From: Eledone cirrhosa
Taxonomy: Eukaryota
Direction of reading: 5' to 3'
Assembly: GCA_964016885.1 (NCBI GenBank)
Contig: CAXHJY010000651.1
Coordinates: forward strand, 4,993-68,992
Length of the DNA: 64,000 nucleotides
The notes under the pieces were generated by a model that was not told where the DNA came from, searched no databases, and worked only from the letters and a program-made list of their open reading frames with translations. Each line of letters starts with the position of its first letter. Position 1 is the first letter of the stretch. This document shows positions 58,113 to 58,418 of this stretch, piece by piece. The translations under genes and the position numbers were made by a program.

Positions 58113-58126
58113 CATAGGGTGGGGGC

Positions 58127-58174
58127 TAAGCTCTGAGGAATACCAACAGTATGAAACAGAGATCTGTCAGCTTA
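58127..58174 (+). ncRNA. Complete type I hammerhead ribozyme, copy 1
   Basis: taagct-CTGAGGA-atac-caaca-gtat-GAAAC-ag-agat-ct-GTC-agctta; all three stems pair; predicted cut after 58168. Confidence 0.85.
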
Positions 58175-58247
58175 TCTCCCTTTGTTTGTTGAAAAAACAA
58201 GTAAGTGACATAGTCACTACTTTAAAAATACATAGGGGGGGGGGGGC

Positions 58248-58295
58248 TAAGCTCTGAGGAATACCAACAGTATGAAACAGAGATCTGTCAGCTTA
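58248..58295 (+). ncRNA. Complete type I hammerhead ribozyme, copy 2
   Basis: Identical to copy 1, 121 bp downstream; predicted cut after 58289. Confidence 0.85.
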
Positions 58296-58418
58296 TCTCC
58301 CTTTGTTTGTTGAAAAAACAAGTAAGTGACATAGTCACTACTTTAAAACAATAGCGTAAGGTCATCAAAATGCTTTTAATTAAACATACAGTGTATTACC
58401 AAATACACTATATATACA

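What the first reader, a model, noticed from the sequence alone, without database searches (positions are those of the whole stretch)
58113..58350. 121-bp tandem carrying two complete, identical hammerheads (minimal retrozyme candidate)
Seen: two head-to-tail copies of taagct-CTGAGGA-atac-caaca-gtat-GAAAC-agagatct-GTC-agctta with 6-bp stem I (extendable by G-run/tctccc), 4-bp stem II, 4-bp stem III and a GUC site. Inference: a + strand transcript would self-cleave after 58168 and 58289, releasing a 121-nt monomer able to circularise, as non-LTR retrozyme RNAs do. This would be a very small unit.
Basis: partly seen in the sequence, partly recalled or inferred. Interest (0 to 1): 0.8.

Follow-up and report, generated by a model that had tools for sequence, protein, structure and literature searches.

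The report
Locally duplicated hammerhead repeat fragment
Two intact self-cutting-RNA (hammerhead) motifs do sit 121 bases apart, but the 121-base unit is likely a one-off local duplication inside a shortened copy of a very common jumping repeat of a known kind, rather than a new miniature mobile element; cutting has not been tested.

Summary
In detail: two type I hammerheads with complete cores, predicted cleavage after 58168 and 58289, 121 nt apart, in a 107-bp exact repeat; 0 of 60 shuffles gave such a motif. Public reads show a high-copy dispersed family (2254 contigs laid in one run), but not a 121-bp unit: summed depth at the unit junction is 0.06-0.15% of that at the hammerhead core in three runs of one sample, and 0 in a raw-read run. 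Family copies instead carry a 5' arm that completes a ~27-bp stem I and continue into 58349-58427. The locus is therefore likely a 5'-truncated retrozyme/Penelope-pLTR-type copy in a (TA)n tract whose first ~120 bp were duplicated on the spot. Compensatory changes among family copies (stem II, C3-G8 to U3-A8, a 3' hairpin) support a selected ribozyme in the parent. 121 bp is not a record: 51-972 bp units are reported. The window's own genome was unavailable, so other 121-bp arrays are not excluded. The scan has noted the same kind of element (310-467-bp units) elsewhere in this genome, but no look-alike of this sequence. Low interest.

The parts
58049..58112 (.). (TA)n tract on the left, target side of the insertion
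58110..58227 (+). Copy 1 of the local tandem (118 bp): short head with interrupted G-run, hammerhead 1, 3' arm of stem I, hairpin 58199-58222
58127..58174 (+). Type I hammerhead 1: stem I 58127-58132/58169-58174, core 58133-58139, stem II 58140-58152 (A10.1-U11.1), stem III 58156-58167, predicted cut after 58168; U at position 1.7 (58175)
58228..58348 (+). Copy 2 of the local tandem (121 bp), same head with a 12-G run; 58228-58245 is the locus-specific junction that is nearly absent from reads
58248..58295 (+). Type I hammerhead 2, identical to hammerhead 1, predicted cut after 58289
58169..58289 (+). 121-nt piece that double cleavage would release (40.5% GC; predicted, not shown)
58349..58427 (+). 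Unduplicated 3' part of the parent family, the deepest-covered stretch in reads; 8-bp hairpin 58390-58409 with a compensatory pair among family copies. The 3' end is approximate because it merges into (TA)n
58422..58452 (.). (TA)n tract on the right

Best explanation
The locus is a 5'-shortened copy (about 58110-58427) of a high-copy, non-coding, hammerhead-bearing repeat lying in a (TA)n microsatellite, likely written there by a Penelope-like reverse transcriptase, and its first ~120 bp were likely duplicated afterwards at this one site. Shown: two intact type I motifs, the (TA)n flanks, an abundant family in reads, a family 5' arm that is missing here, a family 3' continuation that is present once, and near absence of the 121-bp junction. 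Inferred: the parent RNA was copied from a start near 58427, copying stopped inside the 5' arm of stem I, and a DNA-level slip or repair event then repeated 58110-58227. A 121-nt circle cannot have been the sole template of this insertion, because 58349-58427 is family sequence that such a circle would lack. If read-through transcription crosses the locus on the + strand, both ribozymes would probably cut and release a 121-nt RNA, but as a by-product lacking the 3' part where copying presumably starts, so likely a dead end.
For:: summed depth at 58233-58237 is 22.9, 32.3, 17.6 (X1-X3, one sample) and 0 (X9), against 167,000-200,651 at 58203-58207 and 20,109-29,612 at 58273-58277; ratios. The longest of the 24 pieces listed (of 2549) is 60 nt and none bridges the junction. 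Loose ends behind 58227/58229 run into the 58349+ sequence (X9: 843 and 55 reads); loose ends before 58239-58248 (6-11 contigs per row in X1-X3, 88 reads in X9; also one contig each in X4 and X5) match by eye the reverse complement of 58169-58195 with a 2-nt insert, i.e. a ~27-bp stem I with an internal loop. Both copies share the same truncation point and head, and a C at 58198/58319 where at most 0.6-2.8% of family depth is neither G nor T. Covariation in the family: stem II U-A to C-G within one X4 contig; A10.1 to G and U11.1 to C both frequent; core U3-A8 variant in loose ends at 58262/58269; hairpin pair 58393/58406 G-C to A-U at equal depth in one X4 contig and in 30 of 73 and 27 of 72, 51 of 99 and 49 of 98 X8 reads. 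5' truncation, partial tandems and microsatellite targets are described PLE features (PMC8557442, passages).
Against: The window's own genome was not held, so copies of the 121-bp unit in this assembly could not be counted. X1-X3 are one sample holding only 0.33-0.40 of 15 sampled words and may be another individual or species; X8/X9 are reduced-representation. A 12-G run can depress or break short-read contigs, so part of the junction dip may be technical. Summed depth is not a copy number. No Penelope ORF was linked to the family, and the full parent unit could not be read. No microhomology at the duplication junction is visible in the sequence. Rfam does not recognise the motifs.
Confidence: 0.75

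Rival explanations
1. The 121-bp unit is a young, low-copy mini-retrozyme derived from the larger family by deletion and already amplified through its own circular RNA.
For: It meets the working definition of an active retrozyme in 10.64898/2026.07.22.740005 (two consecutive units with complete hammerheads). The predicted circle is well paired: -29.9 kcal/mol against -18.3 +/- 3.7 for 200 mononucleotide shuffles, 1 of 200 as low, 68% paired. Junction depth is small but not zero in X1-X3.
Against: Junction is 0.06-0.15% of core depth; the insertion contains 58349-58427, which the circle lacks; only two copies; no second copy in the window; circle stability comes largely from the inherited stem I arm and hairpin.
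Confidence: 0.08
2. The tandem arose during insertion: the reverse transcriptase copied a donor RNA that already began at this head, then jumped back to position 58348 of the same or a second RNA (a Penelope-type partial tandem).
For: PLE insertions commonly form partial tandems with a tail on one end only (PMC8557442), and a PLE enzyme starts at two internal sites (PMC11167929, parts 1-2 of 4); the one-sided extension 58349-58427 resembles such a tail.
Against: Both copies start at the same truncation point with the same head that merges into the local (TA)n flank, whereas a partial tandem has copies of different 5' extent; the extension (~79 nt) is longer than the 30-40 bp tail described; one search lists no cluster of molecule ends at 58348.
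Confidence: 0.1
3. The duplication is an assembly artefact of one hammerhead copy.
For: 107 bp are identical; the only difference is a G homopolymer; the locus lies between (TA)n tracts; no listed contig bridges the junction.
Against: The G-run of copy 1 is interrupted by a T and is 3 nt shorter than that of copy 2; one X1 contig at depth 4.9 carries this head with one extra G, though it is not shown to span the junction.
Confidence: 0.07

Closest known systems
Metazoan non-LTR retrozymes (Cervera and de la Pena 2020, PMC7229834, sections 13-14 and passages read; Li, Clavereau and Pollet 2026, 10.64898/2026.07.22.740005, parts 1-3 of 5 read)
   Same: Canonical type I hammerhead in each unit of a head-to-tail, non-coding, low-GC tandem; very high-copy parent family; predicted self-paired monomer.
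   Different: The 121-bp period is below the 150-450 bp repeats and 170-400 nt RNAs of the 2020 paper (inside the 51-972 bp range of the 2026 preprint), and it is not the family's unit; no circular RNA shown.
Penelope-like element pLTRs and non-autonomous derivatives (PMC4209133, parts 1-2 of 4 read; PMC8557442, passages; PMC11167929, parts 1-2 of 4)
   Same: Hammerhead near the element end, 5' truncation, (TA)n site, one-sided 3' extension, U3-A8 core variant in the family as described for Schistosoma PLE hammerheads.
   Different: Hammerhead is canonical (4-bp stems II and III), not the minimal PLE type; no RT/GIY-YIG ORF linked; tandem copies share one 5' end; no inverted partner arm in the window.
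Schistosoma mansoni type I hammerhead (as described in PMC2632901 and PMC11875169, passages read)
   Same: 6-bp stem I followed by an internal loop beginning with U1.7, loop 2 starting with C and ending in A, and a pyrimidine at the end of the 5' side of the loop.
   Different: A10.1-U11.1 instead of the highly conserved G-C (PMC4209133); 5-nt loop 2; the 5' side of the internal loop is replaced by a G-run in both window copies.

Membership tests
Type I hammerhead ribozyme | Conserved core CUGANGA / GAAA / UH with stems I-III, stem I open | tested here: met
   0 hits in 60 shuffles
Type I hammerhead ribozyme | Compensatory variation keeping stems and the 3-8 pair | tested here: met
   in family copies; linkage seen directly only in single contigs or loose-end strings
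Type I hammerhead ribozyme | Nucleotides for the loop 1-loop 2 contact (U1.7, 3' A of loop 2) | tested here: met
   against PMC2632901/PMC11875169 passages; sequence presence only
Type I hammerhead ribozyme | Match to an Rfam hammerhead model | tested here: not met
Type I hammerhead ribozyme | Self-cleavage in Mg2+ | not testable with these tools
   active fold 3.4-3.5 kcal/mol above the ensemble in a model without tertiary terms; 8 of 9 predicted Xenopus dimers did not cut in the 2026 preprint
Non-LTR retrozyme (the 121-bp unit) | At least two consecutive tandem units, each with a complete hammerhead | tested here: met
   definition read
Non-LTR retrozyme (the 121-bp unit) | Non-coding, GC below 45-50% | tested here: met
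   40.5% GC; no ORF of 90 aa or more over 58110-58430 among 163 listed
Non-LTR retrozyme (the 121-bp unit) | The unit itself is amplified as a mobile family | tested here: not met
   junction 0.06-0.15% of core depth, 0 in X9; own genome not available
Non-LTR retrozyme (the 121-bp unit) | Expressed as linear and circular monomer RNA | not testable with these tools
   no RNA run was available to lay
Non-LTR retrozyme (parent family) | Tandem unit of 150-450 bp with a type I hammerhead | tested here: inconclusive
   family extends beyond the window copy on both sides (loose ends) but its full length and tandem form could not be read
Penelope-like element derivative | 5' truncation and insertion in AT-rich/(TA)n DNA | tested here: met
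Penelope-like element derivative | Partial tandem with a 30-40 bp tail | tested here: inconclusive
   one-sided extension is ~79 nt and both copies share one 5' end
Penelope-like element derivative | Homology to the pLTR of an RT + GIY-YIG element | not testable with these tools
   no eukaryotic genome or repeat library held; no adjacent ORF; pattern scans of three collections empty

The most novel reading that the evidence does not exclude
This is a snapshot of a mini-retrozyme being born: one local duplication inside a truncated Penelope-type insertion has placed two working hammerheads 121 nt apart, yielding a circular RNA smaller than the 170-400 nt animal retrozyme circles reported in PMC7229834, and one that lacks the family's conserved 3' hairpin, so it would test directly whether circle formation alone suffices for mobilisation.
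Probability: 0.1. Interest if true: 0.55.

Novelty: new member of a known kind. Interest (0 to 1): 0.2.

Why it matters
As a locus it matters little: it is one decayed copy among very many. It is a caution for retrozyme surveys, because a pipeline that calls any hammerhead-bearing dimer an active retrozyme would list this as a 121-bp family, while reads indicate that it is a fragment of a longer element; some very short published units could be of the same sort (inference). If the duplication did yield a circular RNA it would illustrate the proposed route from a Penelope end to a new retrozyme (10.64898/2026.07.22.740005, Discussion).

Tried and rejected
Whole-genome counting was impossible. 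No RNA holder was listed; this says nothing on expression. Degenerate-pattern scans to fetch a full family copy found 0 loci in metagenome contigs, prokaryote genomes and viral contigs, as expected for an animal repeat. Rfam hits near the locus are miRNA-like matches to (TA)n palindromes, below gathering scores. Tandem Repeats Finder output was cut before this region (42 of 192 rows not shown), so the period comes. The rise in depth toward the 3' end was first read as 5' truncation of the family, but a step at 58198 is at least partly due to a diverged subfamily whose loose ends still show a GUC site, so it is not used as evidence. A Pol III promoter in the upstream tRNA-like repeat (about 57602-57658) was considered and rejected as a driver: three T-runs of 5-6 lie between. 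A double-hammerhead fold is not clearly preferred: 4.3 kcal/mol above the ensemble for the full form, 2.75 for the outer half, 3.5 for each monomer. No target-site duplication can be told apart from the (TA)n flanks. Paper searches for hammerhead with octopus (4 listed of 5) or cephalopod (2 listed of 4) showed no description of this family; supplements and Repbase were not seen and may hold it. Earlier-findings look-ups by sequence and relatives gave nothing relevant.

Full report
Observation. Two CUGAGGA cores lie at 58133 and 58254, each with a 6-bp stem I, a 4-bp stem II capped by CAACA, GAA, a 4-bp stem III and a GUC triplet; the predicted cuts after 58168 and 58289 are 121 nt apart. The exact repeat is 107 bp; the tandem runs 58110-58348 with copies of 118 and 121 bp that differ only in the G-run. 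A strict type I descriptor finds just these two motifs in the window and none in any of 60 Markov shuffles. Rfam does not score them as hammerheads, which counts against a close match to curated models but not against the fold.

Context. The window is repeat-rich animal DNA with many (TA)n tracts. The element sits between (TA)n tracts at 58049-58112 and 58422-58452. No second copy is in the window, and none of 163 ORFs of 90 aa or more overlaps it. Five other hammerhead-like motifs of a minimal type occur in the window, so such motifs are common here.

The family. No genome was held, so I used public runs (10 listed, none on record as RNA; X1-X3 are one sample with 0.33-0.40 of 15 words). Laid on 58106-58415 at 80% likeness, X1 gave 2254 contigs, X8 2681 reads, and two other organisms 16 and 6 contigs: an abundant, diverged family. 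Its variation respects the fold. One X4 contig changes a stem II U-A pair to C-G; A to G at 10.1 and U to C at 11.1 are both frequent; loose ends in X1-X3, X8 and X9 show a core with U3 and A8, a covariation described in natural hammerheads (PMC3088659 passage; PMC4209133). The 3' hairpin 58390-58409 shows a G-C to A-U change at 58393/58406 in near-equal read fractions and in one X4 contig, and most family depth has G at the first loop position where the window has A. Linkage is directly visible only in single contigs or strings.

The 121-bp unit is not the family's unit. Laid on one permuted monomer, 58178-58298, at 88% likeness, summed depth falls from 167,000-200,651 at 58203-58207 to 22.9, 32.3 and 17.6 at 58233-58237 in X1-X3 and to 0 in X9, then rises to 20,109-29,612 at the core: 0.06-0.15% of core depth. 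Of 2549 pieces 24 are listed, chosen as longest or at a joint; the longest is 60 nt and none bridges the junction. What family copies carry instead is visible in the loose ends (24 rows shown, 126 not): after 58227 they continue into the 58349+ sequence (843 reads in X9), and before 58239-58248 they carry an arm that by eye is the reverse complement of 58169-58195 with a 2-nt insert, completing a stem I of about 27 bp with an internal loop placed as in the Schistosoma ribozyme (PMC2632901 passages). Both window copies have lost most of that arm at the same point, share the same head, and share a C at 58198/58319 where 0.6-2.8% of family depth is neither G nor T. Limits: summed depth is no copy number, a 12-G run may depress junction coverage, X8/X9 sample a reduced part of the genome, and the runs may not be the window's individual. 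One X1 contig at depth 4.9 has this head with an extra G, which is compatible with a single real locus but not shown to span the junction.

Mechanism. Most likely (0.75) a parent RNA was reverse-transcribed into a (TA)n tract by a Penelope-type enzyme, starting near 58427 and stopping in the 5' arm of stem I, and 58110-58227 was then duplicated locally. The carrier is inferred from literature: PLE insertions are 5'-truncated, form partial tandems and, for Naiads, favour (TA)n (PMC8557442 passages); an anole PLE cuts AT-rich DNA and starts copying inside a stem-loop (PMC11167929, parts 1-2); Xenopus retrozymes are related to pLTRs (10.64898/2026.07.22.740005, parts 1-3). A 121-nt circle cannot alone have templated this insertion because 58349-58427 is absent from it. 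The window ribozymes keep the whole core, U1.7 and the 3' A of loop 2 (contact described) but have A10.1-U11.1 rather than the conserved G-C. In a secondary-structure model the active fold lies 3.4-3.5 kcal/mol above the ensemble because CUCUG pairs with stem III bases; the model lacks tertiary terms, so cleavage is plausible but open. The predicted circle folds at -29.9 kcal/mol, 1 of 200 mononucleotide shuffles as low, 68% paired. No promoter is evident; an upstream tRNA-like repeat is separated by three T-runs.

Rivals. A young amplified mini-retrozyme (0.08), a partial tandem made during insertion (0.10) and an assembly artefact (0.07) are not excluded; the tests are listed under next steps.

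Comparison and novelty. The locus works like a non-LTR retrozyme dimer and meets the 2026 working definition, but fails the test that the unit is itself amplified. The parent is a probable new member of the retrozyme/non-autonomous PLE class; its full unit could not be read. 121 bp is below the 150-450 bp of PMC7229834 but within the 51-972 bp reported in the preprint. My searches showed no description of this family; supplements and repeat libraries were not seen. Earlier unchecked notes from this scan describe 310-467-bp hammerhead units in (TA)n tracts of the same genome; none was returned as a look-alike of this sequence, and whether the parent is one of them was not tested.

Verdict. Real motifs, ordinary origin: interest 0.2; new member of a known kind.

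Noticed in passing
window 13388(+), 27887(+), 35063(+), 35015(-), 63285(-): Minimal, Penelope-type hammerhead-like motifs with an AT-rich palindromic stem III region; 13355-13510 and 27859-28011 are 80% alike, 34933-35207 holds an inverted pair, and a decayed relative lies near 14252-14454.
   Followed up: partly
window 58860-59027: Near-perfect inverted pair (76 bp, 98.7%) around a short (TA)n tract, itself beside another (TA)n tract; resembles a two-armed insertion.
   Followed up: no
window 57828-57918 and 57950-58050: Two ~95-bp related elements (89% alike) with terminal inverted ends, separated and followed by (TA)n; MITE-like. Reads in X8/X9 show another locus where a U3-A8 family copy follows the same element end.
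   Followed up: no
window about 57602-57658: tRNA-like repeat, 82% alike to the Rfam tRNA hit at 4981-5050; likely a SINE head.
   Followed up: partly
window 21131-25847: 52-bp minisatellite, about 91 copies, 95% matches.
   Followed up: no
window 42705-43133: 142-aa frame that by eye resembles a non-LTR reverse transcriptase remnant (recalled resemblance, not scanned).
   Followed up: no
reads laid on 58194/58315: A more abundant sister subfamily shares the 58199-58222 hairpin but has a different stem I 3' arm after a GUC site.
   Followed up: no
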